Shown piece after piece: positions 21,683-42,480 of a stretch of DNA of 64,000 nucleotides. The translations under genes were made by a program, and so were the position numbers. Under the pieces are notes generated by a model. It saw only the letters and a list, made by a program, of their open reading frames with translations. It was not told the DNA's origin and did not search any database. This DNA is from Psammoneis japonica (Eukaryota): contig QPGO01000005.1 of the NCBI GenBank assembly GCA_008632985.1, positions 372,001 through 436,000 on the forward strand, written 5' to 3'. Position 1 is the first letter of the stretch; the number at the start of each line of letters is the position of its first letter.

Positions 21683-21997
21683 GGTCAATCGAGAATTCAC
21701 TGTTCACTGTGGTCAAGGGTCAGAGGTCAGAAGTTGGAAGTCGCATCGCACGTTGCGCGCCTCGTGGAACTTTTGCATGCGAGTGCGCGACATTTTTTTG
21801 CGTTTTCTACGGTTACGGTAAAATGTACGTAGGAATTAGTAATAATTTGGAAAGTACCGAGTTCCCACGAATCTTTCACATACGAAATCATGGTAGTAAT
21901 TCTACGAATATACACAAAAAAAATGACAGTGATTGAGAAATTTAGCAACGGTCACGACACAAACAAAATCCGAAAATTCGCGCTCGTTTTTCGCTCA

Positions 21998-22292
21998 CAA
22001 CTGTCGTCTCGCACCATGTGTTTGTTGTTTGCCAAGCCAGAAGCCGTAATCTCCGAGGATGGCTCGCCCTTCCTCTGGATTGAGAGCTCGCTCTTGTTTG
22101 GCATTCCACAACTCATTTTGCTTGATGGTGCGTTGTCTCTCTTTTTCAACTCGTCGTCTCGCACGATGTGTTTGTTGTTCGCCAAGCCGGGGTGCCGCAA
22201 TGCCCAAGGATGGCTCGCCCTTCCTCTGGCTCTAATTGCCTGCTCTTGTTTGGTGTTCCACAACTCATTTTGCTTGATGGTGTGTTGTCTCA
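21998..22292. repeat. Tandem duplication, two copies of about 150 bp
   Basis: gtcgtctcgcac(c/g)atgtgtttgttgtt(t/c)gccaagcc...ggatggctcgcccttcctctgg...ttccacaactcattttgcttgatggtg at about 21998 and 22147. Confidence 0.9.
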
Positions 22293-22829
22293 AATGGCAG
22301 CGCAGGTGTTGCCAGCCAAGTCCGGAGGTCGGGGCAAATCGAATGCGTGTCTCCGGCCTTGAGTCCATGTCACTCTCGTGTCTTTGACCGCAGGAAGTTG
22401 CCTGTTCACTTGACCCGTCAGGTCACGGTTGTTGAAACAGACAGCAGCGTTCATCTGCGAAGCAGCAAGAGCTCGCCAAGCAGATCATGCCATTGACGGA
22501 ACGCGGGTTTGGGGTTCCGTCGCATCAGCATGACATGATGCGGCAAGTCTTCACTCGCAGGGAGTGTTGATTTAGAACGCGGTTGACTCGCAAGTTTTCT
22601 TGTTGTCTCCGTAGCACGTCCCCCCTTTTACATTCTTGTGTGTGACATTTTTCACTCTGAAGATGCGCAAAAGCTTGAGCTCCATCTTTTGATGGCGCTC
22701 TTGAGGCAACGTTGTCCTGCGCGACCGATTTCTGTCAACTTTTGACATTGACGTGTTTCAAACATTTGAAACACACTTTGAACCTTTGACACAGAAGCAG
22801 AAAGACTAAAAGCACCAGACAGCGTTCCT

Positions 22830-23110
22830 CATTTGCGTGCAAGTTGTTCCGCATGCAAGTCAATTGACTGTGATGACGGTCGCAGCGCTTGCATTGTTGT
22901 TGCGCAATTTGATGTCATCATTTCTGCATTTGCACCACACCGCTCTCTTTTTTCAGATGGGGTCCACGATGGGGTGTTTGTTGCAGTGTGCCCCAAGATG
23001 ACATTCAATGTGTGCTGGACCATTTCGTCACTGATCGCCTGCATGTTTTTAATGGATTCGTCGTGTTCTGCCAAACGGGCGGAGCAACAGAAGAATGTCA
23101 ATTCTAAAGT
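22830..23110 (-). mobile_element. Possible Mutator/MULE transposase remnant
   Basis: W...RERCG...MMTSNCATTMQALR resembles the MULE W...RYG...TSNxAExxN segment once Y->C is allowed. Short and degraded. Confidence 0.3.
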
Positions 23111-23429
23111 GGCTAGCTGGAACACTCTCCGAAAGGTTCTAAATTCGTGAGCTCATTTGTCTGACATTTGTCCTCTTTCTGAGGTGAAGAATCACCTGGC
23201 TGTGTGATGTTGTGTGCCTCCTTCAGCTGCACAACAAGTCTCCAATCAGATCCTCGAGCTTGTCTTCCAAGTTGGCCTTGAGCACGTCGACATGCACACG
23301 TCAGGGTCCACTGGAGGCTGTGAGATGAATGAAATTGATGACCGCATTGAATGTCGGGTTTTTCTTCATTCACAATCTTGAGGCCACAGACGATTCCTCG
23401 AGAGCGGTCTCTTGCTCCTTGCCATTGAC

Positions 23430-23900
23430 CTCCGTCAACGTGCAGTCCTCCCAAGGCAGGGATGCACAATTCCCAAGATGTTGGCCAAGAACAGCACAAA
23501 TTCAGATTTGGCAGCCATGCCCCCATCTGCACAAAGTTCTGAAACAGGAACTCCCGAGTCAGCGGCCGTGGTGCCACACACCTTGGAGCAATAAAATGCT
23601 GCCGCCTCTTTTGCTGCGCTTGCAACATTCGCCTTGGCATGACACCCGTGAGTCCAACAATCATTCCACGCGCACTCTCCTCCCATTGTGGAGCCAGCGA
23701 GCCAGCAAAGGCGGGGACAAACCACACCCCTCCATCGTCATTGGCTTAAGAAGCCAAATCTGCAATGTCTTTGGCGCTGTCACCGACCTGCAAGTTGTCG
23801 CGGAGCCATCCTACAATGGCCACAGAGCACCTCGAAGAGCAAAAATTGTTGGATCTGCCTTGATTTGGCAAAAAGGAGATGACAGGAGTCCACATTGTGA
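23430..23900 (-). pseudogene. Glycerol kinase (FGGY family) C-terminal fragment, frameshifted
   Basis: SVAIVGWLRDNLQV...DIADLA; WFVPAFAGSLAPQWEESARGMIVGLT; DSGVPVSELCADGGMAAKS...LANILG, spread over three frames. Confidence 0.85.
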
Positions 23901-26149
23901 AACATGAGGATTGTTCTGAGCACCCACATTCATCAAGAGAAAGGCCCCAGTTTGCATGCAATTCCAGAGACAGGACCAATCCTTCACTCAAATCATGCAT
24001 CCTTCAGCTCGCATGTGGTTGTCCAAACACACCCGAATCGGACGGTCGTTTGCGAATGTGCCCAATTGCAGAGCTTGCATCATTGCATGCATGGGAATGA
24101 GAACAGCAAAATTGAGCGTTTCGATGGCTTCGCCGACACAACAACAAGCCACGATTGTGCCGAGCACTGGATCTTCGCAAAAGAAATCGGCTTTGCCCAA
24201 CAAAGCCGCACCTGTGGATGAATCTTTCAGCAGGTCCAGCACATCCGAAGAAATTCAACTTCCTTGCTGCTTCAGAGGCAAATGACTCCAAGAATGGTGG
24301 TGCATGATTGTTTGCCGTCGGAATGATGTGACTCTGGAGAAAGCGATTGTCTTGGGACTCCATTCCCCACTCCCATTGTAAAGAGGTTTTGTTCTTTAAA
24401 TTCCCTTTCTTTCGATTGGGCATCTCTGTTATCGTCAATTCGTCAAAAATCAAGTCGAGCAGCAAAAAATCTAGAACCATGCGCTCAAGGATTGACGGGT
24501 TGCGTGTGTCGGCTAGAAAGGCTTGCCTGGCAAATCAACACGCGGCAGCTCTTCAATGTAGGCTAAAAGATTCACATGTCCCACTGCCGACGGGCACTCT
24601 GCTCTAACTCCCATAATCCATAAGAGCCGTAGACTGGATTGTCAATCAAGCTGTTGATGAACTGAAATGGAGTCTTCCAGACGTAGGCGAGACCAACAAG
24701 TGCATGGCAGGCTTTGATTTTCTCGGCGTTTCACCATACGATTCAGCCAAAATGTCAATTGATTTCTCTCTTCTACAGCTCGAAACGGCTCTTGCAGGCT
24801 GTGGCCATGGCATGTCACTGCAATGTCGATTTTAGTGAAGGAAGCACCTCGTGCCGTGGCCACGTTGAATGACATTCACGTTGGAACCAGGAAGAGCGAT
24901 GCCCGCTGAAAATTCATGAAACAAACGAGAAGCTGGTCGAATGTTTCGCTCCTCTCATGCATGCGCCAACAGTGGCAGCTTCCTCCTTGGGACGCAACAC
25001 GCAATTAGAAGGACATTCTTCTCCTGACGATGCAAGCAAGTTCAAGAATGTCTGCAGTGTCGCAATGAACAGGCTTGGGAAACAGCAGAGGCACTTGGTC
25101 TATCTGCATGGTGTTGTTGGCGATCATTTCAATCAACTCGGCAGCATTCAGCTGTCTTGGTGACTGCATTTACAACGGTGTCGTCTTTGTCATGTCTGAC
25201 ACCTCTCGATCAAAACACGCCCACGTCAGACAATTCAACAATGACAACGACAGGCACAGTCCATCCTGCTCCCGCCCACAAGAGCCGCGTTGACGATTTC
25301 GACACTTTGCCTCCCAGAGTTGGTCCTCTCCATGTTGCAAAATCTCTTCCTGCCAATCAACAGCGCTTTGTGCTTTGTGATTTACACCGGTGGGGCCCTC
25401 TGCTCTAGAGCTGGCTTGTAGAGAGCAGCAATTAGAGAGTCCATCTTGGGTCTCTGGTGTTGGACGGAAGAGGTGGGTCTGGGGAAAGGTGTGGCGGAAG
25501 AGTCGCGCGAAGTGTGCTGGGGGATGGAGAGAAAAAGGGTGGGCCGAGGGTGTGGACAGACGGTCGAGAGGAAGAGTTGGTGGGTGACAGTGGGATGGTG
25601 GAGGAGAAGGGCTTGATGCGCAGAAAGATGGGTGGAGAGGGCAAAGCGAAGTTGAGACTGAGGATTTGAGAGGCCCAGAGTGGAGGGGGGTTGAAGTTTG
25701 GCACGAGAAGCCGAAGCGGTCTTGAGAGAGCTGTTTCCACGCCACCACATTGGAGCTGGCAAGGAGGTCGGAGGGTGCAAGGAGTGAGTTGGTGAAGGCG
25801 GAGAAGGATCATGTTTGAGAGTTGGAAAAGGAAGAAGGACTTGTCCAGGGTGGTTCAGGAGGAAGGGGTGGGATGGAGGAGGGTGTTGTGGTGGAGGTGC
25901 CGAAAAAGAATGCGCGGAAATGGCAGCCGATCATGCCGCCACGGTGGTCGAAGACAAAAGGAAGAAGGAAGAGCCCGGCTTTGCTTCGGTCCCATTCATG
26001 AATCAATGCATCCAATCTTCCAATCTGATTTCCAAAAGCTCAAGCTGTGGTTGCACAGCACTGCGACAGTCGCCGTGGGTTTCTGCACACAAAACAGATG
26101 AAACCGTGAGCTGGGATTGCTCGCAAGACTCAGAGCATGAAGTTGTCCC

Positions 26150-29100
26150 AACACTTTTGAAAAAGGACCACAAATTCCCTCCAACCATGAGCATCACAAT
26201 TTGAGAATGACACCAAATTTGTGCGACAGCCTGCATGCATGCATCTGATGAAAAACATGCGGTGTCGCCATTGCAAAAAAAAGGGAGTCGTTGTTCGCTT
26301 CCTTCTCATGGCAAGTGGCACCTACGGCATCACTGCCAACTGCATTTGCTCCCTCTAGTTTGTCCCATCCACATTGCAAAGACACTGAGGATCTCACAAT
26401 GGTTGGCAAAGAATGCGTTGTTCAAGGTGACGAGGCACTGTCCAAAGATCTCAGGCGTGTGACGTTGACTGTTGATGAGTGCAACAAGAAAGCAGAAACT
26501 CGCGGCAGCTCCAGCAAGAGAACAGTGGGGTGTGACACAAATGAGCATGCACAGATGTGTTGCAGGAGAACGAGTGCAAGAAAAAGAAAAGGAAAAAACT
26601 GCTAGAGTCCTCAGCACAGCAGAGGAGAAATCATCCAATGATGGCAGTGCTGATGATGATGACACTCCTGACAATGATGCTGTGCCTTCCAATGATTTGA
26701 CCGCTGTTGTTGTCGCCTTCTGGGATGACACGTCCACATGGAACCTGTTCAATGCAGATGATGGAGAGGATGCAAAAAAGGCAATCAAGAAACAGACAGA
26801 TGAGTTGGCAGCTGGATTTTCTTTTCATGATGGATGGAAAGAAGTGATTGAAGGAGGTGATCCTGACAACCTGTGCACACCCAACAATGCTCATGTGATT
26901 CGATTGCAATGCCAGCATCTTGCAATCATGCTCAACTGTGCATTGAAGAAGCCACCAAAAAGGAACACTGCATGGCTTGACTGCTGTCAGCATGCAATTG
27001 ATGACCTCAATGGCACAGGTGTTAACTTTGTAAAAAGTCACCAAACCGCAGCTGCGTGGTGTTGCATCTTTAGAAATCTTAGTTCCTTTCCTCATCCCCA
27101 ACCAAAAGGAAAAGGTGACCCACCGACATTTGAAGCATGTCCAAAGATGAAGCGGAAATTCATTGAGTTTGTGACAGCAAACCTTTCTCGACTTTCTGCT
27201 GAGGTGGCCACAGATCACTTCCATGAAGTGCTTGTCCTGGAATTCTTAAAGAGAGAGAACAACAACCATCACAAGAATGGGGAAGACATCATGGAGTCAG
27301 AATGGCGGGAGTTCCTGTGAATCAGTGCAGATTGCTCACTGGGGAAAACCAACTGTGCACTTCTTCAGATGCAGTTTCCAACTGGATGAATCTGTTTGGT
27401 TTCCAGTGTGGGCCAAACAAAAAGATGCATGTGTTGATGATCATGAACATCCTGACAACATGAGGTGTGGAATGTGATGATCCATCAACATTTGATGAAA
27501 GAAGAACAAACCCTGTGTTGGATGTAACTTCCAAAAGCAACTGTCATGGTCCTTGTTGAAGCTGAAGCTCTCCCAGCAAAAATGGGGCATGAACACCAAG
27601 TCAATGGAGAAGATTTTATCGAGTGTCATGTCAATGCCATCGTTGACCTGGAAAGCATCATGCCCAAGCTGTCTGTGCAATTTCGTGGAAGTGAAAGTGT
27701 GAGAAAGGAGCCCAGTGTAAAGCCTCTCATGACATTTGGACAGGATGAGGCCATTTTTAAGCAATGCTTGCCAAGCACAAGCAGCTGGTTGGGTCCCAAA
27801 GGTGAGTGGCCACTGCTGCCCAAAGATGATGGAGAAGGCATGATGCAATCTCTGCTCCAATGTCACAAGGTTGGCCTCATTTGCAATGAAGACATTTTGG
27901 AAGAGCAGCTCAGAGAGACAAATGAAGCTGGAGCAGGCAAATGCCACACTGATGAAGATGCTGCAGAAGCAGTGTTCAACAAGAAGCAGCATGAGCCAAA
28001 GTTGAAGAAAAGTCCATTCCTCCACAAGTTTGAGCATGGAGCAAATGACGACAGATGCTGGAATTGCGATCACATGCTGGTGCGATTGGAGGATTGCAAT
28101 CTCATGCTGGTGCAATTGGAGGACTGCATGGATTGCTTGAAAGTGCTGTGTCACAATTTGTTGCCACTTCCTTTTTGATCATTCTTGCAGGCACAATGAG
28201 CAGAGAGTGGACAGACTGATCTGTGACAAGCACATGATGAATGCAGGAGTTGGCGGCAGTCAGAACAAGATGCACCCTTCTGGGATTCTTCAGGCAGAGG
28301 GTTTTCCAGGTTCTCATGCCAAAGCTGTTGGCATGTCATCTGCAGGACAAGTGCAAACAATGGCATTCAGTGAGGAAGACCAGGAGCCATGCTGGATGAT
28401 GCCAGAAGAATGAGAAGCAGAGAAATGTGACGCACCTGCAGAGAGACAAACTGAAACTTGGAAGTTCCTGTGTGATGAAATTTTTGACAAGCTTCTACAA
28501 AAGAACATCAAGAACGTCAGGGGTGAGAAAAAGGATGAGTTGATTGACACAGCAAAGAGCAGCAACACACCTGTCAAAGAAACCATTCAAAAGGCAAAGC
28601 ATGGATGGGCCGACAATCCAAAAGGATCAAAGCAAATTTTGCGTGAGCGAGGATGGATTGATCCCAACAACCCTGGAAAATGCACTGTGGATGGCACAAA
28701 GGGCAACAATGGAGAGATCGACAAGCCAACATCTCTCCTTCACTTGATGGCTGCTTGCAATGATTTTGTCAACAAAGAGACGTTGTTGCAAACGATGGGT
28801 CACAAAATGGGTGTGGCCATTGACAGAATGCCAAAGTGTCACCCAGAAATGGCTGGGGGGGCATTGAATGTTCTTGGGGACTTGCAAAGCAGTGTTGTCA
28901 TTTGAAACCTTTGTCAAGAAAGAGGGGAAAGCAAAATTTTAGAGAGTTGGCACAAGAGTCAATGTCATCAACTGCGCTCATGACTGACAGGGTGCGAAAG
29001 TTTTTGCAATGAGCACAATGACACATTTGTGCTTGCATGGTTCTTTCACACAACCTGATGTGTCTGAAGAGGTCAAGCATGGAGCCTTGTCTCCAGAGAC

Positions 29101-29200
29101 TGTTGAAAAGCTTGTCAAAGACTTCAAAATGCACCGCATTGTGATTGATTTTGACAAGGCTTTCATTGTGAGGAAACTTTTTGCAGGGTGAAAAGATGCT
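26150..29200 (+). mobile_element. Decayed DDE DNA transposon, IS630/Tc1-mariner-like transposase
   Basis: FGQDEAIFKQ (D1), FLFDHSCRH (D2, about 28167), KGSKQILRERGWID, and PKCHPEMAG preceding the catalytic E region. Many frameshifts and stops. TIRs not identified. Confidence 0.75.
28073..28127 (+). repeat. Short in-frame tandem duplication (about 30 bp) in the transposase
   Basis: catgctggtgcgattggaggattgc / catgctggtgcaattggaggactgc giving MLVRLEDC, MLVQLEDC. Confidence 0.85.
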
Positions 29201-29829
29201 TTTTTCTGGGAAATAAAACAATTTAGAAACTGGGTGCACCATGTTTACAATGTTGCTGGCAAATTTGCCATGGCTTTTTGCATGCAAAATAAATTTTCCT
29301 GCCAGCCATGCAGGACTGAGGCAATTGCACAATGAGCTGATGGATGGCAAGATGATTTGACTTTCTGATTTTTTTGTGCTGGAAATTTTGTGCGCGCTAC
29401 ATGCATCATCACTAAAAATCGGTGACATGATGGTGGCATGTTGTTGCAATGTTGGTCATGTCAGCCACATGTTCAAGAGTTTTTTGTCTTTATGGACATT
29501 CAGTTTGTCATGTTTGTGGATGTGTTCAGCCATGAAAGTCCCCGCCATGAACATCTGTTTGATGGAAAAACGTCGCACCAATGCCGAGCTCTGTTTTCGA
29601 CCTGTCACTGTCATGCACTCATCATTGAATGATTGAGACTTCATCTGGGGGACTTTCTTTACACATTTGTGCTTTAAACAGTGTTGTTGGTCATTGTGAC
29701 AAGTGCCCATTGCAAAGCTGTCCTGCAAGAGCTTCAGAAAAATGCCATCGTCATCATCGGCATCGACGGCAATTTGTCACGCAAATTGCAAAAAATGCAT
29801 GACTGTCATCTGTCCAACATTGCGCTGCT

Positions 29830-30070
29830 GTGTGCACATTGTGCGCACACCTTGGTGCAACATTTGGGTTGGTTGCAGGAAACGTAGTGTCGCCACTGCA
29901 AGAAAAAAAAGGCAGTCATTCCTTGCTTCCTTCTCATGGCAAGTGGCACCAAAGGTGTCACTGCCAACTGCATTCATTCCCTCCAGTTTGTCCCATTTGC
30001 ATTGCAAGACACTGAGGATGTCACAATGGTTGACAAAGAGCGCATTGTGCAAGGTGAAAAGGCACTGACC
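29830..30070 (+). repeat. Second partial copy of the 5' part of the DDE element (matches about 26200-26445)
   Basis: Shared gcttccttctcatggcaagtggcacc...tcactgccaactgcatt...agtttgtcccat...gacactgaggat(c/g)tcacaatggttg. Confidence 0.85.
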
Positions 30071-30469
30071 CAAGCAGATCAGAAAGATGATGCGGGTGAT
30101 TCTGGAGTTTCTGACATGAAGAAAAAGATGCAATGGCTCTCTGGTGCATTTGACAAGAAGAAAGAAGATGCTGCAGATCGTGCCCCTCAGCCTGCAAAGA
30201 AAGGGGAAGGCTCACTTGTCAGCTCATGCATGAAATGGCTTGACAAGACCAACAAAAAAAGGAGAAAGAAATGGCAACAAGTCCACAAGGAAAACCAACA
30301 GGGTTGCAACTTGTCAAGGATCAAATGAAGTGGCTCAATGAGACAAACAAGAAGGAGGAATCTCCCAGGAAAGGTGACTCTGTGAGGTTCAAATGAGTTC
30401 AATGCTTGCAAAAGATTGTGTGAAATGGCTGGATGAAGCAATCAAAACAAAACAAAACAAAACCTCTGT

Positions 30470-32900
30470 GTTTAAAGTGCTGCTGTGCTTCCACCCTGCA
30501 ACTCTGGCAACAAGCCAACCCACACCCCCAACACACTGATGTGTGGCAGGAGCATGTGGCAATCAGCCAGATTCAGCATCCCCCATGGGAGATGCCATGC
30601 CAAAGTGGCTGACGATGGTTCTTGTGCCTCTCTGGCAGCCAAACATTTGGCTTCTTTTGTGCTGGACTCAAACATGGGTTTGACCATGGCCAGCCAATTG
30701 CAAAGGCAGTGAGTGGAGTGCAGAAGATGTTCATCAACCAAGTCGAACAACTGCAATTGATCCTTTGCCAGGTGGCCACCCTTGCGCAAATGTGTTGCTT
30801 TCACCTCTGCTTCTGCATTGTGATGTTGCAACAATTTTTCTGGTCTCTGAATCACAGCCATGTGCGGCATCATCATTGTGGTCATCCCACAGCTCCCGCC
30901 ATTGCTCCCATGTGTGATTGCCTGCTGTGGCAGCCCAATCCAGGCGTTGCTCTCATTCAGACAAACTCTGACATGTGCCGCTGGCCAGCAGACACAAAAA
31001 TTGAGTTTTGTTCCACAAAGTGGAGAGTCTGCCACTGAAAATTTGATGCCAACCAATGTCCTCTTGAGATCAGAAGACTGCTGCCATGCTGTGATGGAGG
31101 CCCTCTGCATGCAACATCTCATTTTGGAACCACGACTCAAGAGCGGTCAAGCGCAAGTCATGCAAGGATGGAGAAGCATTTGTGTCATCACATTTCTTGC
31201 AGAGTCTGAGTGAGAATGTCCTGCACCAAGCTTTGTTGTGAGGGCAATGGAGAATGTGATCTCCATCCTCCACAGGATGTTGACAATGCATGCAGCAGTC
31301 CAGACAGGTTGGGTTGTGTTGGTGAACTGTCTTGTTTGTTGGCAAGAGATCCTGAATCAACTTGACAGTGCTCACTTTCTGGTGGATTTTCCTTGACAAT
31401 GGCTTTGCGTGCACTTTCCAATTGATGGAGTTGTGTGCTGCATCCGTCCAACCATTCTTGTCCTTCATGTGGCTGACAAGAGCCAGGGCGGCTGGAAGCT
31501 TCAAATCAAAGAGTGGACTTAAAGTTTGATGATGCAGCGGAATCCTGAACAACCAAGTTTGCAAGACAATGAGGCATGCAAGGAGCCAGCAGAGTGTCAC
31601 CAGAACAGTGACCTTGGCATCAACCAGCCAGTTTGTCAGCCCACACTTTCAACTTGGCTGGCAATGACAGAGCATCATACAGAGTGTTGTCGTCCTGATG
31701 GCCTTTAACCCAGAAGACCTTTGCTTCAGTGCCAGAGCAATCATTGGCTGAGACACCCGAGATCTGCTCTAACAACAGGTGCATTTTGTGAAGAACATCC
31801 CATTCAGCGGCAAGAGAGTTTGCAGTGTGATGGCAGATGAAGCAATCTTGATTAGAGTCTGTCTCTTCCTCATTGGGAGGCAGCGGAGGTGTGGCTTGGA
31901 AATTGGACATGTTGCAGACCAAGGAGGAGTTGTTGCAGCACAGGTGCACTCCAAGACCAAAACCTCTGTGACAGCATTGCATCAGTCTGAAAAGAAAGCA
32001 AAGAACAGATGAGAGCCCATGTGCTTTGGCCCCATGTGATGAGGGACAAAAACTGAATGCTGGTCCAGCACAATCAACTGACAGTGTGCCATCCATGGAC
32101 AAGGTCCAGCCGAATGTGCCTTGAAATTCAACCACGGAACCGTCGCTTCCAACAGAGGCTCGGGAAGAGGCTGGTGGCTCAGCAATCTTGAAGACAGGTC
32201 AATGCACAGCAATGTCTTCAAACAACAGTGACTCCCAAGGTGGAAGGGCCTGTGGCATCGATGCAAACAACGTCGTGCATGCCTCATGGAACTTTGCCGC
32301 ATCTTGAGTCTGCCACTGTTGGGGAGCAGGGGGTGTGGTGAGGAGCAAACTGACTCTGCAGGGAGATGATCATGTGCTTGAGAATGGCAAAGACAAGACT
32401 TTCAGCTTTTCCAAGGGGACTCTGTTGGCAATTCATGGTCTAAACTGATGGGAGCAATTTGCAATGGAATGAAAACAAACAGCGCCACCAAATCATTGGT
32501 GCTGGGTCATGCCAGCTGCCAGCAGTGCTGCTGCTGTGCAGCAATTGGCACAAAGAAGAAGCTTGCGCAGCAGCCAACCCATGCTGGTTGCTTGCAACAA
32601 ACCTTGGACATCATTCAGTCATGCCTTGTGGCATGCTGGGAGCTGCTCTGCAGCAAAACACAGCATCTTTGGTTGACAGGGCCGCGCCAGTGCTTTCACC
32701 CAGAGCCCAGAGCAATGATGCTGCACACTTCTGGTTGCTGCCATTCTCCACATTCCACTGCACAGCAGGCAAAAAGTTGCTGCAGGTCAATCTCAATGAG
32801 GGACTCACTTGGCTGGAGGTGGTGGACTTGCAAAAACCAGTCAGTCTCTCGCTCTGACACACCACCTCCTGCTTTTTTGGCCCGTTGAGCCCATGGACCA
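30470..32900 (-). mobile_element. 5'-truncated non-LTR retrotransposon (diatom Ambal-like) remnant: RNase H and C-terminal Cys/His knuckle; RT domain not recognised
   Basis: SDGSVVEFQGTFGWTLS...CAGPA...SSHGAKAHGLSSVLCFL, LCCNNSSLV, FWVKGHQDD...ADKLA, KNGWT...INWKVH, CMHCQHPVEDGDHILHCP. (AAAAC)4 at about 30444-30463 marks the 3' junction. Confidence 0.8.
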
Positions 32901-34161
32901 CTTTGGCCTCTCAGGGGAAAGGAGGGCCATGTGAGAGTGTTGCAAACAAGCAGCACATGAGGTGGAGCTGAGACTCCAGAGACAACCATGAGATCCTGGC
33001 TGGCATCTCCCACTTGGCCAGCAACCATGCTGGCTGCCATGATCCTGAAATGTGACAGAGTTGTGGGCCCAGCATGGCCCTGCTTGCATCACAGCCAACA
33101 ACCTCCCAAGGTGCAGCACATCCTGCTGCCACACCATTTTTCCATGCAAATGTGGTGACACAGCCACACCCCAGTGGCGTGAGAGTGTTGAAACACAAGC
33201 AAGCACCAGTCAAATGGAGTGGCAGCAGTGTGACAAGTGTGCCATCAGCAGGTGGAAGAAAAGCCCAAAGTTGTCTGCAAAAAGAAGGAAACAAAACAAC
33301 ACACAAAGCAACAATGAGGAACCATGCCCACATTTTTTGCCCACTGCTTGCAAATGACTTGTGCAACATTGACCTTCGTCCTCTTAGATTGCTTTGGATT
33401 TCTCAGAAAGACTTGGATGGCAAGATGAGGTTGTTTTTGCTCTTCCCTTGAACCTTCACCAGATGGCTTGGTCCTTTTCTTTGGAAGGCTCTTGGCATCA
33501 AACTGTCCAGGAAAGCAAAGAGAAGAGATCGTTGTAGACACACAAGTGGCTGTCACCTGAAGGAGGCATGCTGAAAGAAAAAAAGCAGCACTCAGGGTTT
33601 TTGTCTGGAAAAGCACAGCTGCTCTTTTGTTCACAATTAAAATTTGATCAATGAGAAGCCTGTGTTCTTGTCAAGTGGGAGTGCTCATTCATTGTGAACA
33701 AATTGACTGTGACAATCAACCAAATTGGCAAAGTGGGAAACAAGACTTGAGGAAATTTGGCCTCACAGCACATGGCTCTTGACAAGATCTGTTTTGAACT
33801 CAACCACAGCGCAACAATTGTGGACAATTGAGCATCAATTGTCAACTGAGTTGGTGAAGCAGGAAACCACAATGAGTTAAAAATGGTTAATTTCTGTGCA
33901 CAAACACCCAGGTTGATCCAATTGGTTGTTGTTGTTTGCTGGCTCTAGCTTGCCAACATTTTGAGTTGTTTGTTTGTTGACCAGAGTGCATTTTGCAACT
34001 TTGGTTTCTGACAATGTTTGCTTTCTGCCCTTGTGCAATGTTTGACATTTGGCACATGCTCTCATTCTTCTGTGCTGTTGCCTTTGCTCCTCCCTCTGTT
34101 TTCCAAGCTGCTGCCCCATTGTCTGTCCCATCATTGTCTCTTGCAGTCTGTCTTGCATCTT

Positions 34162-34376
34162 GGGCCTGTTCCAGCTCCAGGTGCTCCGCGCGGGTTCGAT
34201 TCCCATCATTTGGAAATTTGTGCATTCAGCGCAACACTTTGCGTGTGTTTTCGGGTGTACACTCACCTTTCGATTTTCGAAACGATCAAAATTGAAGGAG
34301 TTAATTGCGCTAAACTGCACAGAAAATTGGCCTCTCGCGTGATGAAAAGCAGAGCACCTGGAGCTGGAACAGGCCC
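34162..34376. mobile_element. 215-bp MITE with perfect 25-bp terminal inverted repeats (PIF/Harbinger-Tourist-like ends)
   Basis: 34162-34186 gggcctgttccagctccaggtgctc is the exact reverse complement of 34352-34376 gagcacctggagctggaacaggccc. TSD not cleanly resolved. Confidence 0.8.
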
Positions 34377-35199
34377 TTGGTGTCCTTGGTTGTGTCGGCA
34401 TCACATCATGCTCCAATCTTTTGTGTGTTTCAAAGAGAGTCATTTTTGTGACAGCTTTTCATTGTGAGGTGTGAAAGCAAAATCCCTGGCAAAAAACAGC
34501 AGTGAAGTTGTCAGTTTGGCACAATTTCTTTGGCAATTGTGGCACAATCTGCTGATTCTGTTCATCTGTGTGCAATGTTGTGGCACATTGTTTCACATCC
34601 TTGGCAGTTTTTGTCAACTTGTCTGAGTTTCGAGAAATGACAAAAAGCACCAAATGAAAGCATCAGCTTGCTGTTGTTTGCTGCAAGCTGTCTGCTTCCA
34701 TGTCACACTTCTGACCTTTTGCCTTTCCCATGGCATTTTTTGTTGGCATGTGCAAAGCCCTGGGTGTTGTTGGTGCCTTCTTGCAATGTCATCATTGCTT
34801 GTGTGCTGCTTGTGTGCACCCTGTGTTTTTGTGTTTTTTTGTGGTGGTGATCATGTGCCTTTTTGCCATGGAGCCAAGCCAGTCAGCCTGACAATCATTG
34901 TCTGTGTCATCATTTTGCAAGTTGTCATTCACAAAAAAAAGCCTTTTGTTGCAGCCAATTTTGAAGTTCACAGGTTGTTTGAATCAACTTAGATGAACCA
35001 CTTTGTTGGTTTTCATTGCTTTGCTGTTTTGGTTGTGGCTGTGAGTTCTCATTTGTTTGGCAGCTCGTGGATGTTGAACATTGCACCTCAATCAAATGAA
35101 GTGCATCTGTTTTCAAAGAAGATTTGTGTCTCAGTTTTCACAACCTCAACCAGCTCTTGTTGAGAATGAAATTTTCGCATTCATGCCAGTCTGCACAGC

Positions 35200-36630
35200 T
35201 TGTTTGTTCATTTGTTTGGGGGTGCTGTTGCAGCTGATCTTTGCAACTGGCCAATCCACACATGTGCAACAAAACAATCCCACAGGGCTGCAGAGAGGAA
35301 CAAGAGCAACAGCCCCCAGAGACATGGTGCACTGCAGCTGCAGCGCCTCCTGTCAATGCCAGCCCTCCCTGACAACTTGTGGCCCATGCCAGTGTGATCT
35401 CCAGCAGGTCAGTTCAGACTTGAGCTTCCCAGCTTCAGAGCAAAGTGGTGGCCCCATGATGGCACCAACCAACCCAACAAGCAACAGCAGACTGAGGGTG
35501 CTGGTGGTCTCCAGTGGACCCCCTGCAATGCTCCAAGAATTGTGGTTGAGTGTTGAGGACAAGCAGCGCAAGAAGGCTGGTGTTGTGCACTTGTGGCACC
35601 CTTCACATCCCCTCCCACCAGTGAGAAATGCACACTTCACAAGTCCCAACTCCAGCACAACAAGATCCCATGATGGCATCAGCCAACCTGACAAGAACTG
35701 CAAGCCGAGGGCACTGGCAGTGTCTGGTGTGGACCACAGGCAACACTTTGAGAACTGTGGCTGAACATTGCAAGGTTGATCTTCTTGTGGCATTGTGGCA
35801 CCATGCTGTCATCTTGTCCCCAACAGCAGAGTGCATGACTTTCCAAACTCTGCAGTGCAGGGATCCCATGACGGTGCCAGCCAACCTGACAACTGCAAAC
35901 TGAGGGCATTGGCATCTCTGGCAGATCCCAGGTGACACTTCAAGAGCTGTGGCTGGACATTGCAAGGTTGATGTTGTGGTGTTGAGTTCCATGTCCCATT
36001 GTCCCCACCCAACAGGGGCAGATTTGTGCCTCCAAACTCCAGAGTGAAAAGACCCCGTGACAGCACCAGCTGACCTGACAACAGCAAGCCAAGTGCATTT
36101 GTGATCTCTGGTGGACCCTGGGTGACCCTTTGAGCACTGCAGTTGGACATGCTTGAAAGGTTGATGTTGTGGTGTTCCATGTCACCTTGTCCCCCCCCCG
36201 ACATGAGCAGACCACTTGAACCCCCAAACTCCAGGATGAAGTGACCCCATGACAGTGCCAACCAACCTGACAACAGCAAGCTGAGGACACACTGGCAGTC
36301 TTTGGGGGGCTCAGGTGCAACTTTAAGAACTGTGGCTGAGCATTGCAAGGTCAATCTTGTGGCGCTGTGCTCCCATGTCATGTTGTGCTCAACAGCAGCA
36401 GACTGACTTTCCCAAATCCAGAGTCATGTGCAGCAATCCCATGATGGTGCTGCCAACCAACTCATCAACTTCTGGCAGAGGATGCTGGTGGTCTCTGGCA
36501 GGCCACAGGCAACACTTTGAAAATTGCGGCCAGGTGCTGACTGCAAGGGAGGTCAATCTTGTGGTGTTGTGGCCCCATGTCACCTTGTGTTCCCAACAGG
36601 AGCAGAGCTGAACTTCCAAACTCCAGAGTT
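35200..36630 (+). pseudogene. Decayed gene for a secreted-type protein with six tandem repeats of about 190-215 bp (about 64 aa)
   Basis: Units begin ccc(a/g)tga(t/c)(g/a)g..cc at about 35452, 35667, 35865, 36055, 36246, 36438 and read roughly PHDGxxQPDNSK.R.L.VSG...F(E/K)NCG..CKV. Upstream hydrophobic LFICLGVLLQLIFATG. Confidence 0.6.
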
Positions 36631-37939
36631 GCTTGTTCACAAAGGTTTTGATTGCTGAATGGCAGCGGGTGAGCAAAACTTCAAAAAACAAGGTGCTGGA
36701 AATGCCAGAAACATGGAGTTGTTTTGAAGTGGAAAATGGCTTGAGGGGAGAGTGGAGAAATCTGCATCAGCATTTTTGAAACAAGCTTGTCTTTGTTCAA
36801 AGCTGGCATGTTTCTTGCAGAGCAACAAAGAAGAGCTGCGCACACTGCACACAATTTGGTGTCTTCACTGGCAGAAATCCACTGCCACAGCTGAGACAAA
36901 GTGCAATGTGCAAGCAGCATGGACCAAAACAAAAACACAAGATCAAAATCACAAACATGTTGGCCCCAATGACTTGGCACCCCAAAAAGTGTTTGCATTG
37001 GCTTGTTGTCTGTTTGAAGGTTCAAAGTGGTGCTGAACAAAGCACAGATTGACCCACACTGTGAACTTTGTTGTGATGTTGGAATGCACCAAATTGTGGT
37101 GTGATGATGATGAGGCTGAGTTGGTTGATGAGCACTGGCAGCAAAACAGGAAGTGTGAAGGATGACAGGGATTGAATGATGACATGGACATTGTGGGGAA
37201 TGCTTGACATTGCTCATTGGGTCTGTGGGCAGAAGGAAAGGACTCAACTTTGCAGCTGTGTTGTCTGTCAAAAGGGGGCAGTTCAAGAACAAGAAGTTCA
37301 TTTTGAAAGGAAAGCCTTTTCATTGCTGTCAGATGTGATGAGGGCACAGTGAATTGTGACAGAGGTGTGCTGCCATTGTGCAAATGACAGATTGGCAGCT
37401 GAGTTGTGTGGTGCTTGATGCAACAAACAGACAAATGCACCAGCAGAAACACTGAAAAAATGCAATGGACAATCAAGCTGAAGCCCTGAAAAATGCATCA
37501 GCTCTGAACAAGATGCCAGGCTACAAAACAAAACATTGCAAATCTGTGACTGTTGGAAAAGTCAGCTGTCAACCTCAAATGACAACTTTGGCAATGCCAG
37601 ATTTGTGGCTAAAAATGAGCAAGTGTGAGAACATCATCCAGCAGCACAGCTGCAGTGACCACATTGGTTGACCTTGAAAAAATCATGACACCTGTGACCC
37701 TGTGGAGAGTGTGATCACAGGTTAAATTTTTTTGACTCTTGTTGATGGATCTTCTTGTTCAGAGCAAAAAGATGTCACAGATGTTTCCAAAGGGAAGGAC
37801 ATGCAACAACACGCACCAAGACTCAAACTGGCTTCAACTCCAGAATCTTGCTGCCAGCTGTGCCACAGTTCTCTCCCCCCCAGTCTTTTCCTGTCTTCCC
37901 AGCACAGTTTGATGATGCACATGCCACCCTGAGTTGCTC

Positions 37940-38630
37940 ACACCCTTGATTGTCTCAGAGTGGTCTCATGGTTGGCTCTCAGCACAGTGCAGTGCACTTG
38001 GTCAATGCCTTCATCTCATTTTGCTTTCCTTCAGCATTTGACAATGTGGTCTCTGTTTCTTCATCTGGCGGGCACAGCCAAGCCCAAGTTGTTGAATCAT
38101 CAACAGCAGAAACATCTCAGAGCACCCCAGGTAAATGTTGAGATGTGCTTTGCAAAAATGCACTTTTTGTCAAACTCATTTGTTTGGGTTATTTCCTGCA
38201 GCAGCAAAGTGGCTTCTTGCTCTGTTGCAACAAGTGTGGCACCATCAAATCATGGGAGCTGTGGCAGCACACACAATCTGGTGACCCCGCATCCTCATTT
38301 GGCATGTCTCTGCCAATCAGCTGGGTTGGGTTCACTGTTTCTTGTTCCAAGTCATCAGATGTGGTGGGTGGAGGAGCTGTGATCAAATGTGCTCTGCTCA
38401 GAGAAAAGTGCGCAGAGTTGACATGCCTGTCTGCTGCACCAAGCCAAGCACCACAAGAAACTTTGGGGTTGGAGTTGATCATGTCTGAGCCCAGCTACAA
38501 AGATTTTTCTTCATGATCTTCTGGCAACAGCAGTGTGATTGTTGGGACATTGTGCAGGTGCAACCCAATGTGGGACAGTGTCCCTGAGAGAAAAACAATG
38601 CTGTTGGCACAATTGCAGCTGAGCAAATGA
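37940..38630. repeat. Partial copy of an unidentified repeat family, matching about 42640-43380
   Basis: Shared ttcatctggc...cacagccaagcccaagttg, ctgg(g/a)ttgggtt...ttcttgttccaag, ttggagttga...ctgagc, gcacaattgcagctgagcaa (also at about 41445). Confidence 0.75.
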
Positions 38631-39374
38631 TCTCACACACTTTCTGTGTAAAAAGATTTTGAGAGCCCAAGGAGAGGAGGTGTGGGAGACATGAGGGGCA
38701 GAGCAGATAAAGGCATTGAAGTGGCAACCAAAATGGAGGGGGGGTCAGGTGGAGCAGAGAGAGAAGGCAGCAGAGTTGTGCAGGAGAGAGAGGCAACAAA
38801 GGGCAGGTTTTGGCCACAGCAACCTTGGGGGCACCAAAAGAGTTCTCAAGGCAGTTGTCAACACACAGGAGAAAGTTGTCAAAGGCAAAAAGGGAGCTGG
38901 GAACTTGAAAGACAAAAGGGAGGGGAGGTTTGCCAGCAGCTGCATGGTCACAGAGGTGTGCATGAATGCAAAAGACAAGAGCTGGGGATGGCATGTGAAT
39001 TTGGGGATTCACGGTGCAGGCAAGTGCAGGAAAGGAAAGAACAACAGGTTGGAAGCAGCGCCAAGCTCATGGAGGAAGCCTCAGTCCTGTGAGGAGGGCA
39101 AACAAAGAATGGGAGCCTGGGGGGAGAGGGGCCAAAGGATTGAAGAGAAATTGGGCAAAACAGGGTGGCAGCAGAAGGGTTGCAAATGGAGGAAGAAGGG
39201 GAGCAGGAAGAAGGCTCAGGTGGAGACAGCAATTGGAGGAAGGGCAGTGTGATGCCAAGCAATGTCTCACAAGTCCATGCCAGAGAGAGACCAGCACAGC
39301 CAAGGCAGAGGCAGATGTGGTGACAAGTTTTGAGGACACCAGGTTTGAGCAGAGTCAAAGAGTGGGGTGCAGGA

Positions 39375-39860
39375 ATGTGCACGAATGATGCAAGGAGCAT
39401 GAAGCACTTTCAGAGTGCTCTTGCTGCTCTTCATTTTCTTCAACAATTTCACATTGATGGCTGCTTGTTTTGCTTTTGCAGTTTTTTTGCTCTTGCTTTC
39501 TGGGTGACCTTTGTTGCAGATGCTTCCAATTTTTCTTGTTCTTTGTCCTCCCCTTCTTTGCAGTCTTGTTCATCATCACATTCTTCCTCTTTGCCAAGCA
39601 CATCTGCAGAGCTGCCATGAAGAACAACCTGAGAAGGACAGTTCTGCATGAATGCAGAGCTGCAAAATTGGGGGCAGAAGGATGATTCACTGCATCATCC
39701 AACATCTGCCTCTGCCATCACAAGAATGATCGCACTGCCATGGTGGTGGTGAAGCCCAGCAAAATTCGTTGACCTGTCATGGTCAATTGACTGGTGGTGG
39801 TGTCACACAAAAGTCACAACACATTGCGCACCTTGTGGAACTTTGCCATGTGTTGTGTGT
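39375..39860 (-). pseudogene. Mutated copy of exon 1 plus upstream sequence of the 20920-21682 gene
   Basis: Colinear with about 21284-21790; LHGSSADVLGKEEECDDEQDC versus LRGGSADVLGEEEEYDDEYDY. Confidence 0.92.
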
Positions 39861-40399
39861 TGACTCTGTTTGCTGTTGAGGAGCTGGGGGGTGAGGACAA
39901 GAGCAAGCTGCAAAAAAGATGATGGGTTTGAGAAATGCAAGAACAACACTTTCAGCCATTCCAAGGAGAGGGTCATTTTTCAGAGTCTAACCCGGTGAGT
40001 GCAATTTTCAGTGGAATGAAAACCAAAAGCACCACATTGAACATCATCAGCCACTCAGCCCTTCCCTTGACAAACCTTGAAACATCATTCAGTCATGCGC
40101 CATGTTGCTGTGCTGAGAGAGTTGCTCCAAAGTGACAAAACATGACATCTTCAGTTGCTGGGGCCATGGCGTGCCTGTGGGCTTGTCCCAAAGCTGTTTT
40201 GTGGTTGTTGCACACATCATTGTCATCATCATCTGTGTGCCTTTTACACCTGCTGCAATGAGCACAGAGTTGCTGCAACCCAATCTTGAAGTTTTGGTTG
40301 ACTCGTCAAAGCGCATTTTTGAGAGACAAACAATGCATGTGGCCATGCAGAGTCTGCAAGCCACCTGCTTTTTGCTCATCATTTTCTTGAACTTTTGCT

Positions 40400-42480
40400 C
40401 ATGTGTGTGCACTTGCTCTTTTCTTGATGACAATCAACTGGCAAGAAAAAGACATGCCAAGACCACTTTGATCACAGGACATGAGGGTTGCATGGGTGCT
40501 GCAAACAAAACACACACATGCACACACAAAAGATCTCAGCCAGCATCCTCTGCTTTTGGTCAACAACCATGTGCTGGCCACCTTGACCCCAAAACATGAG
40601 ACAAACAAGTGAGTCCTCTTTGCCCTCACATCACCTTTCAAGGCATGCATCACCTGTCACTGCACCATTTTTCCACACAAGTGTGGCAACACACCACACC
40701 TCAGTGGCACAAGAAAGTTGCAATGCAAGCAAGAATCAAATGAGCAAAGTGGCAACAGCAGCATGCCAGGTGTGCACCATCAAGAACTCTGAAGAACAGA
40801 GTCCACAAAAAGTTGTGTTTGTGCAAAGAAGGAACAATGACACACAGAACAACAACGCAGCAAGGAGCCATGCACTGGCTGAAATGCATTGCATGTGGAT
40901 GACTTGTCACTTGCTTTTCATCCATGGGGCAAAGTCAAACTGAGCCACTGCCACTGCTGGCCTTTTCAGAAGAGAAGAAAACCCTGCCAAATTTTGAGGG
41001 TTTGCAGATTTGTGCCAGCACACCTGGAGAAAGCTGTTGTCATTTTCAAACCAGCCCCCAATCATTTTCTCTTTTGCTCTTCCCTCCTCAAACCTTTGCC
41101 AGATGACTTGGCCCTTTTCAGCAATCTCTCTCTTGGTGCCAAACAATTTTGGAGAGTGAGTGAGAGGTGCAGACAAGTCACCCAAAGAAAGTGTGCAGAA
41201 GGAAAGGTCCTCTTGGAGTTTTCACACATTTGCAGCTTTGCAATTTTGCCATGGAGCTTGTGTGCAGAATTCCATGTGCTGGCACCACATGCAGCCCCAC
41301 CCAGGGCACTGCACTCCATCTCAAGTGCCACAAGGAACTTAGGATTGGAGTTGACCTGAGCTCAGCTGCACAGACTTTTGTTCTTGTCTCCAGAAACTGG
41401 TGTGGCAGCATGGCTGGGATGTTGTGCTGTAAAAAAAAATGTTTGCACAATTGCAGCTGAGCAATGAACTCACCCGCTCATGCACAACGGAGCCAATTCA
41501 GAGTCTTCAAGCCACCCGCTTTTCACCCCCATCATGTTCTCAAACTTTTGTCTTGCACGTGTACTTGCTTTTCTTGGTGACAATCAGCTGGCAAAAAAAG
41601 ACATGCCAAAACCACTTTGGTCACAGGATGGGAGGGCCATGTGGGTGCTGCAAACAAAATGCACACACAAAAGATTGCAGCAAGCATCCTCTTCTTCTGG
41701 TCAATGACCATGCACTGGCTGCCTTGATCCCAAAGCATGAGAGACAAACCTGCAGATCCTTTTTGCCATCACATCACCACCTTTCAAGGTGTGCATGATC
41801 ACCTGCCACCACACCATTTTTCCATGCAAGTGTGTCAACACACCACACCTCAATGACACAAGAAAGTTGCGATGCAAGCAAGAATCAAACAAGTGGAGTG
41901 GCAGCACAAGCAGCACACCAGGTGTGTCACACCATCAACTCTGAAGAACAGCCCACAAAAGAAGTTGCTTGTGCAAAGAAGTGAGCAATGACACACAACA
42001 ACAACAACAACAACAGTGAGGAGCCATGTGCTCTGGCTGACATGTGTTTTGGCACATGGATGACTTGCCACAGTGCTCCACAAGTGGAGGGCTTGAGTTT
42101 CATCCATGGGGCCAAGTCAAACTGAGCCACTGCTGCTGGCTCAAAAGAGAAGAAGCCCTGCCAAATTTTGAGGGTTTGCAGATTTGTGCCAGCACACCTG
42201 AAGGAAGCTTTTCTCATTTTCAAGCCCCCCCCCCTCCCNNNNNNNNNNNNNNNNNNNNNNNNNNNNNNNNNNNNNNTGTTCTAAATTTCTCAGGCTTGGG
42301 TGGCAATGTGGGCTCTTTTGCTCTTCTGTCAAATGACCTTTGCCAGATGACTTGGTCCTTTTTTCACAGCAATGATCTCTCTGCTCTTGGTGTCAAACCA
42401 ACTTGGAGAGTGAAGAAGAGAAGCGCACAAGTTGCCCAAAGGAAGTGCACAGAAGGAAGGGTCCTCTTGGAGTTTTTCTG
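40400..42480. repeat. Diverged tandem copies (offset about 1.15-1.25 kb) of the unidentified repeat family; third fragment at about 33100-33350
   Basis: 45-bp identity 40982-41026 = 42156-42200; gacaatca(a/g)ctggcaa...aaagacatgccaa at about 40430 and 41580; caccatttttcca at about 33133, 40663, 41813. Confidence 0.85.
42239..42275. other. Assembly gap (N run)
   Basis: Run of n after a poly-C tract. Confidence 1.

What the first reader, a model, noticed from the sequence alone, without database searches (positions are those of the whole stretch)
21950..26500. TpA loss is uncoupled from CpG loss at the left edge
In 22381-22800 (420 bp) I count about 25 CG but only 3 TA. CG then fades inward and is nearly absent by about 35-43 kb. 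Inference: TpA erosion is faster than, or reaches further than, CpG decay, so it is not a by-product of completed CpG deamination.
Basis: partly seen in the sequence, partly recalled or inferred. Interest (0 to 1): 0.75.

Follow-up and report, generated by a model that had tools for sequence, protein, structure and literature searches.

The report
Fast TpA mutator outpaces CpG decay
At the edge of a block of dead repeats in a probable diatom, TA steps in the DNA were rewritten to TG or CA roughly ten times faster than CG steps decayed, the mark of a targeted adenine-to-guanine mutator so far reported in one unrelated alga and whose enzyme is unknown.

Summary
Observation confirmed: 22381-22800 holds 25 CG and 3 TA (flank expectation 24 and 17). 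The stretch is the left edge of a 21.6-kb repeat domain (21944-43534) in a probable diatom. The edge element has at least 40 copies, and many are TA-rich, so it was not born TA-poor. The window copy lost 20 of 23 TA (all to TG or CA) but only 4 of 37 CG. Conserved Tyr codons became Cys/His, which fixes the direction. The A>G change is confined to TpA (TAC>TAT>TAA/TAG), hits both strands, and runs about 9-12 times faster than CpG decay. 'Faster, not a by-product' is supported. 'Uncoupled' is too strong: CG loss rises with TA loss across 42 copies (rho 0.70), and in 464 kb CG loss never occurs without TA loss. The CpG fade is partly positional (one element: 24% lost on its left part, 73% on its right) and partly age. 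Best reading: one exposure gradient read by two clocks. The same TpA spectrum is published for Bigelowiella (bioRxiv 2026); I found no diatom report. This scan noted the TpA loss many times elsewhere in this genome. A TadA/ADAT2-type DNA deaminase is my guess (about 40%).

The parts
21944..43534 (.). Whole TA-poor repeat domain (21.6 kb; TA o/e 0.06, CG o/e 0.29, TG/CA o/e about 1.75)
   Evidence: Two-state segmentation gives C1:393944-415534; dinucleotide table
21790..21960 (.). AT-rich left terminus of the edge element; keeps its 16 TA and lies outside the eroded zone, next to a flanking gene
   Evidence: Homology to other copies starts at 21787-21845; TA-rich copies mostly carry 12-19 TA here; copies buried in TA-poor DNA often carry 1-7
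21960..22291 (.). Natively TA-poor stretch with a 145-bp direct duplication (21998-22139 / 22147-22291, 85%)
   Evidence: 0-3 TA in 21960-22140 in all copies scored; duplication
22150..22900 (.).
   Evidence: 44 matches in G000; 42-copy alignment; Fisher P=3e-9
23471..23952 (-). Fragment of a glycerol kinase gene carried by this element family; intact copies exist elsewhere
   Evidence: 83% to intact copy L041/L067; Pfam FGGY_N/C; PDB glycerol kinases E 1e-153; 8 of 9 TA and 10 of 21 CG of L067 changed
22153..25377 (.). Left part shared with paralog C1:233340-236542; both copies TA-eroded; 32 of 135 paralog CG lost in the window copy
25466..25981 (.). About 520-bp repeat of another family (TA o/e 0, CG o/e 0.79), absent from the paralog alignment
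26026..26447 (.). Continuation of the paralogous element; the paralog is unmutated here; the window lost 22 of 23 TA and 15 of 24 CG
26443..29305 (+). Transposase-like element (DDE-type by recalled motif; no Pfam hit); 93 of 110 CG kept by its four relatives are lost
   Evidence: Four copies at 85-86%; relatives named from Fragilaria and Thalassiosira
29317..29860 (.). About 540-bp repeat inserted into the end of the transposase-like element; keeps more CG (o/e 0.57) than its neighbours
29880..30445 (.). Right part of the paralogous element: 13 of 13 TA and 21 of 25 CG lost at only 1.1-1.4% transversion distance
34370..43500 (.). Old core: both TA and CG near zero; neutral distance to nearest held relatives 0.12-0.21 (measured over 34.4-39.4 kb)

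Best explanation
Repeat DNA that falls inside a silenced domain is exposed to two mutation processes with shared targeting but different rates. (1) A fast, context-specific A:T>G:C mutator turns TpA into TpG, or CpA when the other strand is hit; it prefers TAC > TAT > TAA/TAG and acts in many independent events on both strands. (2) A slower CpG > TpG/CpA decay, most likely at 5-methylcytosine. TG/CA is the end state of both. Because TpA loss is about ten times faster, DNA with low cumulative exposure (recently engulfed, or near a boundary held by a neighbouring gene) is already TA-free but still CG-rich, and CG loss serves as the clock of exposure. At this left edge exposure rises inward over about 4-5 kb; the core is also older. 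SHOWN: direction, context, strand symmetry, rate ratio, nesting of the two losses, and a position effect within one element. INFERRED: a silenced/methylated state, spreading of the domain, and a defence role (loss of Tyr codons cripples transposon proteins). Chemistry, my guess at about 40%: deamination of DNA adenine to hypoxanthine by a TadA/ADAT2-family enzyme, since TAC is that family's preferred motif.
For: Direction: at 15 columns where >=70% of aligned homologs (120 proteins) have Tyr, the eroded transposase has Cys 7, His 4, Tyr 3, Phe 1. Ten of 12 aligned glycerol kinase Tyr codons became TGC/TGT/CAT/CAC, and its TAG stop reads TGG in the eroded copy. Context per A site: TAC 212/373, TAT 69/201, TAA 30/136, TAG 16/200, other contexts <=0.10. 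Independent glycerol kinase set (partly overlapping loci): TAC 0.54, TAT 0.53, TAA 0.32, TAG 0.29, others <=0.08. Strands: 19 vs 18 in L069; no strand runs (145 observed vs 148+-6 shuffled, 18 copies). Rate: heavy copies TA 287/333, CG 124/543; partial 55/115, 17/185; light 39/497, 39/797, a net ratio of about 9-12. Twelve heavily hit copies have the same transversion (0.011 vs 0.011) and non-CpG C>T rates (0.013 vs 0.010) as 22 light copies, so they are not older. Nesting: of 928 bins over 464 kb, TA-low/CG-normal 95, both low 177, TA-normal/CG-low 0. Position: same element, 32/135 vs 36/49 CG lost (P=1e-9); edge 4/37 vs transposase 93/110 at equal neutral distance 0.042-0.046. A weak A>G tail at CAY (0.087 vs 0.022) and AAY (0.044 vs 0.011) and the TAC preference of TadA (PMC8065034, passages) fit a TadA-type enzyme. 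The same spectrum was measured de novo in Bigelowiella.
Against: No methylation, chromatin or de novo mutation data were available. TAC>TGC equals GTA>GCA on the other strand, so sequence cannot tell adenine damage from thymine damage. The deaminase genes found (9 PF00383 matches, 2 PF02137 loci) look like housekeeping enzymes with no chromatin-binding domain in the ORFs scanned. The ADAT2-like gene has the Asn noted by Mettrop et al., but from memory so do ordinary ADAT2s. TA sites 22-44 bp from any CpG are lost as fully as those beside one, so no local CpG is needed. A 28.6-kb block is TA-poor with CG o/e 0.74 throughout, which separate targeting explains equally well. The paralog test assumes the window element inserted as one piece, but the family is modular, and the paralog's left part is itself eroded. 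Distance to the nearest held copy is only an upper bound on age. Three older heavy copies were left out of the 12-copy comparison; with them transversions are 0.015. The reference state was taken from the TA-rich copies, which biases their own counts low.
Confidence: 0.65

Rival explanations
1. True uncoupling: the TpA mutator is guided by its own signal (small RNA, a histone mark or transcriptional silence) and covers more DNA than CpG methylation does; CpG decay marks only the methylated subset.
For: TA o/e is flat (0.06-0.09) at all distances from domain edges while CG o/e goes from 0.69 to 0.43. Whole blocks of 4.9 and 28.6 kb keep CG at 0.74-0.81. TA loss needs no adjacent CpG. In the Bigelowiella hypermutable regions 230 of 231 mutations were A/T>G/C.
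Against: CG loss is raised 4-5-fold in TA-hit copies and scales with TA loss. Resistant YTAR sites also thin inward (4.5, 2.8, 2.9, 0.7 per kb; flank 7.0), as one exposure gradient predicts.
Confidence: 0.25
2. Age mosaic only: younger insertions pile up at the left edge, and position plays no part.
For: The core is older (neutral distance 0.12-0.21 vs about 0.04; identity to the best copy 69-75% vs 85-89%). A later insertion at 29317-29860 keeps more CG than its neighbours. The right edge shows no gradient.
Against: Collinear parts of one element differ threefold in CG loss (24% vs 73%), and the more eroded right part is the less diverged from the paralog (0.037 vs 0.048).
Confidence: 0.12
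3. Same targeting and rates, different chemistry: a thymine modification (5-hydroxymethyl- or 5-formyluracil) at RTA, or an error-prone polymerase during repair near methylated DNA, gives T>C/A>G.
For: Sequence cannot separate the two strands' chemistry. Five Y-family polymerase loci are present (6 matches).
Against: AA>AG is 0.006-0.085 against 0.57 at TAC, unlike the WA motif of Pol eta (recalled). Transversions are not raised. PF12851 (TET/JBP) gave no match, but its control rang nowhere, so that search is inconclusive.
Confidence: 0.25
4. RNA editing (ADAR-like) of element transcripts, fixed by reverse transcription.
For: A second PF02137 deaminase-domain gene exists besides a likely ADAT1. 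ADAR favours a 5' U (stated by Mettrop et al.).
Against: Both strands are hit equally and are interleaved. Non-retro DNA is hit (a transposase-like element, a gene copy). Erosion covers different parts of paralogous copies. TAG is the least-hit context.
Confidence: 0.02
5. The edge elements are inherently TA-poor, or the pattern is a composition or assembly artefact.
For: True for 21960-22140 only.
Against: 19 of 42 copies are TA-rich; protein polarity; contigs of run X1 match several domain stretches with few differences (probably the source sample, so not independent).
Confidence: 0.01

Closest known systems
TpA-restricted hypermutation of integrated NCLDV and virophage DNA in Bigelowiella natans (Mettrop et al., bioRxiv 10.64898/2026.01.13.699255; abstract, introduction, results and discussion read; figures and supplements not seen)
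   Same: A>G and T>C only at TpA, giving TpG/CpA on both strands; local domains; long-term TpA-poor, TpG/CpA-rich clusters enriched for DDE and reverse transcriptase domains; enzyme unknown, ADAT2 proposed.
   Different: Here a stramenopile (probable diatom), not a rhizarian; targets are multi-copy transposons and duplicated host genes; erosion is near saturation (o/e 0.03-0.1 vs 0.45 in their NCLDV region); it is paired with CpG decay, which that paper's main text never mentions (0 hits for 'CpG'); a 3' preference TAC>TAT>TAR is resolved here; evidence here is comparative, not de novo.
Repeat-induced point mutation (RIP) of ascomycete fungi, RID/DNMT4-dependent
   Same: Context-specific transitions that saturate repeats and duplicated genes. 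Diatoms carry DNMT4 enzymes possibly related to RID, of unknown function (PMC9998398, passages).
   Different: RIP is C>T and raises TpA (recalled); this process is A>G and erases it. No same-strand runs. 22 of 42 similar copies are almost untouched, and erosion follows position, not homology alone.
CpG decay by 5-methylcytosine deamination in DNMT5-methylated diatom transposons (PMC9998398, abstract and passages)
   Same: Explains the slower CG>TG/CA component; 27 C5-methyltransferase matches in the genome.
   Different: It cannot remove TpA. Methylation was not measured here.
TadA / ABE7.10 adenine deamination (PMC8065034, passages)
   Same: A>G with a preferred TAC motif.
   Different: ABE is laboratory-evolved and native TadA acts on tRNA; DNA activity of any enzyme of this genome is untested.

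Membership tests
Bigelowiella-type TpA hypermutation | A>G / T>C transitions confined to TpA | tested here: met
Bigelowiella-type TpA hypermutation | Both TpG and CpA products (both strands) | tested here: met
Bigelowiella-type TpA hypermutation | Rate about 1000-fold above background | tested here: inconclusive
   0.43 per A site (near the 0.5 ceiling) vs 0.013 non-CpG C>T: a lower bound of tens-fold or more; no per-generation rate
Bigelowiella-type TpA hypermutation | Target is foreign or mobile DNA in local domains | tested here: met
   Transposon and repeat domains; the paper's measured targets were integrated viral DNA, which was not seen here
Bigelowiella-type TpA hypermutation | Active in only a subset of cell lines | not testable with these tools
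   Needs mutation-accumulation lines; copies are bimodal (15 heavy, 5 partial, 22 light)
Bigelowiella-type TpA hypermutation | ADAT2 with HxE-PCxxC and the Asn at TadA 108 (candidate enzyme) | tested here: inconclusive
   Present in L106, but probably universal in ADAT2 (recalled), so not diagnostic
RIP (fungal) | C>T transitions that enrich TpA | tested here: not met
   TA o/e 0.06; non-CpG C>T 0.013-0.020
RIP (fungal) | Strand-coordinated clusters (recalled) | tested here: not met
RIP (fungal) | Homology-triggered, premeiotic | not testable with these tools
   22 of 42 copies barely hit; no crosses
RIP (fungal) | RID/DNMT4 enzyme | not tested
   C5-methyltransferases found but not classified by a tree
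5mCpG decay | CG>TG and CG>CA in equal measure | tested here: met
   e.g. 43/33, 41/45, 48/42, 45/43 in the transposase-like element
5mCpG decay | Methylated CpG in the affected DNA | not testable with these tools
   No methylome
Pol eta WA>WG mutagenesis | AA>AG raised alongside TA>TG (recalled) | tested here: not met
ADAR editing of retroelement RNA | One-strand A>G, UAG preferred (recalled) | tested here: not met

The most novel reading that the evidence does not exclude
Diatoms and chlorarachniophytes share an unrecognised genome-defence system: a natural DNA adenine deaminase of TadA/ADAT2 type, aimed at silenced repeats, acts first and before or independently of CpG methylation. It strips Tyr codons and TA sites from young transposons and gene duplicates within about 1% neutral divergence, and TA-poor/CG-rich zones mark where it is acting now.
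Probability: 0.3. Interest if true: 0.88.

Novelty: new variant of a known kind. Interest (0 to 1): 0.6.

Why it matters
An endogenous A:T>G:C mutator on chromosomal repeats has been measured in one alga only, and its enzyme is unknown. This locus adds a second major lineage, a 3' motif (TAC) that points to an enzyme family, and an order of events: TpA goes first and CpG later, so the CG left in TA-free DNA dates its exposure. TA-poor/CG-rich zones and partly hit copies tell experimenters where to look for inosine, methylation and de novo mutations. A practical consequence: the process creates no stop codons and removes some, leaving long Tyr-free ORFs that gene callers can take for real genes.

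Tried and rejected
By-product of CpG deamination: rejected, since TA sites change directly. TA-poor ancestor: rejected except for 21960-22140. General edge rule: rejected; island length does not predict CG o/e (rho -0.21, P 0.34, 22 segments) and large CG-rich blocks exist (an N-rich stretch near C1:516-519 kb gives a few meaningless bins and one false segment). Need for an adjacent CpG: rejected. Dedicated enzyme search: PF00383, PF02137 and PF00817 gave no chromatin-fused candidate; PF12851 gave no match with a silent control. TA-poor DNMT-like copies (L091-L093, L097, L100) matched none of the 7 intact loci tried, so they could not be polarised. Sequencing runs: no RNA holder listed. Thirteen listed low-depth differences in 23.1-26.2 kb mostly fall on CG/TG/CA/TA steps, but 241 rows were hidden and some could come from a paralog: inconclusive; parts without cover in run X2 were not used. 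None of 120 transposase homologs is Tyr-poor (2.5% or more vs 0.4%), but these are best hits, so this says nothing on the spread among species. Literature: searches for diatom plus TpA, RIP, hypermutation or A-to-G terms (listings only) showed no diatom report; subscription papers are not covered, and the supplements of the Bigelowiella preprint (per-mutation contexts) were not seen. Look-ups of relatives and by words in earlier findings returned nothing. Most core repeats were compared from nine short stretches only.
Full report
Observation. The count is exact: 22381-22800 has 25 CG and 3 TA. The gene-rich flanks predict 24 CG and 17 TA; none of 100 flank windows of that size has 3 TA or fewer. 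The stretch is the left edge of a TA-poor domain at 21944-43534 with TA o/e 0.06, CG 0.28 and TG/CA about 1.75, at unchanged base composition. CG o/e steps down from 0.97 to 0.70, 0.58, 0.25, 0.20 and 0.10 inward, while TA o/e stays between 0.16 and 0.03. The fade is one-sided; the right edge is CG-poor up to the boundary.

Setting. The flanks hold ordinary eukaryotic genes (topoisomerase II, SKIP/SNW, PALP). The genome is 91 Mb, and the two named relatives among 120 homologs of the domain's transposase-like protein are from diatoms, so the host is probably a diatom. The left edge is a modular repeat with 44 matches in the genome. Some copies carry an intact glycerol kinase gene, of which the window keeps a fragment at 23471-23952. 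A paralog 160 kb away is collinear with 21845-25377, 26026-26447 and 29880-30445. Between these lie a 520-bp repeat, a transposase-like element (26443-29305) and a 540-bp repeat.

Was the element born TA-poor? No, except 21960-22140. Among 42 aligned copies (of the 44 listed matches, plus loci), TA ranges from 0 to 59 per kb while CG stays at 42-80. Against the state shared by the 19 TA-rich copies, the window copy changed 20 of 23 TA (16 to CA, 4 to TG), 4 of 37 CG and 2.8% of other sites (Fisher P 3e-9). Proteins fix the direction without that reference: 11 of 15 conserved Tyr positions of the transposase read Cys or His, 10 of 12 aligned glycerol kinase Tyr codons became Cys or His codons, and the kinase stop TAG became TGG.

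Signature. A>G per A site in the 23 copies below 40 TA/kb: TAC 0.57, TAT 0.34, TAA 0.22, TAG 0.08, all other contexts at most 0.10. The kinase copies give TAC 0.54, TAT 0.53, TAA 0.32, TAG 0.29. Surviving TA in the domain is mostly YTAR or mixed context; RTAY falls from 11.7 per kb to 0.3 already at the edge. Both strands are hit, with no same-strand runs. Sites 22-44 bp from the nearest CpG are lost as fully as adjacent ones. Twelve heavily hit copies (three older ones left out) are no more diverged by transversions than 22 light ones (0.011 each; 0.015 with all 15), so the erosion took place within about 1% neutral divergence.

Relation to CpG. In 15 heavy copies TA loss is 287/333 and CG loss 124/543; in 5 partial copies 55/115 and 17/185; in 22 light copies 39/497 and 39/797. 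Net of the light group, TpA erodes about 9-12 times faster; the figure from heavy copies is a lower bound because resistant sites remain. CG loss correlates with TA loss (rho 0.70). In 464 kb of the same contig (928 bins), 95 bins are TA-low with normal CG, 75 intermediate and 177 low in both, and none of 533 TA-normal bins is CG-low (a few bins fall in an N-rich stretch). The losses are therefore ordered and share targets; they are not independent. CG-rich TA-poor DNA is not confined to edges: one block runs 28.6 kb at CG o/e 0.74.

Why does CG fade inward here? Age explains the core, whose neutral distance to held relatives is 0.12-0.21 against about 0.04 for 22-30 kb; it also explains the CG-richer late insertion at 29317-29860. 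Age does not explain 22-30 kb. Parts of one element lost 32 of 135 paralog CG on the left and 36 of 49 on the right (P 1e-9), although the right part is the less diverged. The transposase-like element lost 93 of 110 CG at the same neutral distance as the edge core, which lost 4 of 37. The paralog shows the reverse layout, eroded on the left and intact on the right, so position sets exposure. Caveats: the family is modular, the paralog's left part is itself eroded, and nearest-copy distance is only an upper bound on age. The first 170 bp of the element keeps its TA here and in most copies that abut TA-normal DNA, and often loses it when buried, which suggests a boundary held by the neighbouring gene.

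Mechanism. The simplest model is one exposure gradient read by two clocks: a fast TpA mutator that saturates early and a slow CpG decay, probably at methylcytosine (27 C5-methyltransferase matches; DNMT5a methylates transposons in Phaeodactylum, PMC9998398, abstract and passages). Separate targeting remains possible (0.25). For the chemistry I favour adenine deamination by a TadA/ADAT2-type enzyme (about 0.4): TAC is TadA's preferred motif (PMC8065034, passages), and a weak A>G tail appears at CAY and AAY in hit copies. Against this, the deaminases found look like housekeeping enzymes, and thymine damage at GTA would look identical. Pol eta (no AA>AG excess) and RNA editing (both strands) fit poorly; those motifs are recalled.

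Known relatives and novelty. The spectrum matches the TpA-only hypermutation measured in Bigelowiella natans (bioRxiv 10.64898/2026.01.13.699255). I was led to that paper by earlier notes of this scan and read its abstract, introduction, results and discussion. It does not mention CpG or diatoms. This is not RIP, whose C>T signature is absent. Six literature searches showed no diatom report. The scan has noted the TpA loss many times in this genome, including in this window; those notes are not independent support. What this locus adds is the rate ratio, the ordering, the position effect and the 3' motif. Verdict: real; a new variant of a recently reported kind; interest 0.6.

Noticed in passing
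L041/L067 (C214:54.0-55.8 kb), L043/L068, L045/L069; window 23471-23952: The edge repeat family carries a glycerol kinase gene: two intact copies, one open but Tyr-free copy with stop read-through, and several fragments. Other copies carry different downstream DNA, as in gene-capturing transposons.
   Followed up: partly
L054:1315-3753 (-): An 813-aa open transposase-like frame with only 3 Tyr; TpA erosion leaves frames open, so such relics may be annotated as genes.
   Followed up: partly
L091, L092, L093, L097 (C301, C297), L100 (C28): Extra C5-methyltransferase-like copies lie in TA-poor DNA (2-7 TA/kb); four keep CG at 39-47/kb. Duplicated host-type genes appear to be hit too.
   Followed up: partly
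L177 (C40:112.7 kb) and L178 (C79:344.6 kb): Two genes with the ADAR/ADAT1 deaminase domain (PF02137); no dsRNA-binding domain seen in the ORFs scanned.
   Followed up: partly
L105:313-1785 (-): A zinc deaminase domain fused to a 2OG-Fe(II) oxygenase; perhaps purine catabolism.
   Followed up: no
G000 C1:526753-555327: A 28.6-kb TA-poor block that keeps CG o/e 0.6-1.0 throughout; the best place to test methylation against TpA erosion.
   Followed up: no
window 21063-21206 and 21134-21703 (-): A contig of run X2 skips 142 bases with CT..AC ends, like an intron on the minus strand, which suggests a real gene whose upstream region abuts the TA-retaining terminus.
   Followed up: no
window 39378-39790: 75% similar to window 21284-21692: a decayed copy of the flanking gene inside the domain.
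   Followed up: no
window 35440-36600: Degenerate tandem array with a period of about 190-195 bp; high depth in run X1, so a common repeat.
   Followed up: no
window 43530-43670 and 42239-42276: The right boundary is an AT-rich, TA-retaining stretch like the left terminus; a 38-base N run lies at 42239-42276.
   Followed up: no
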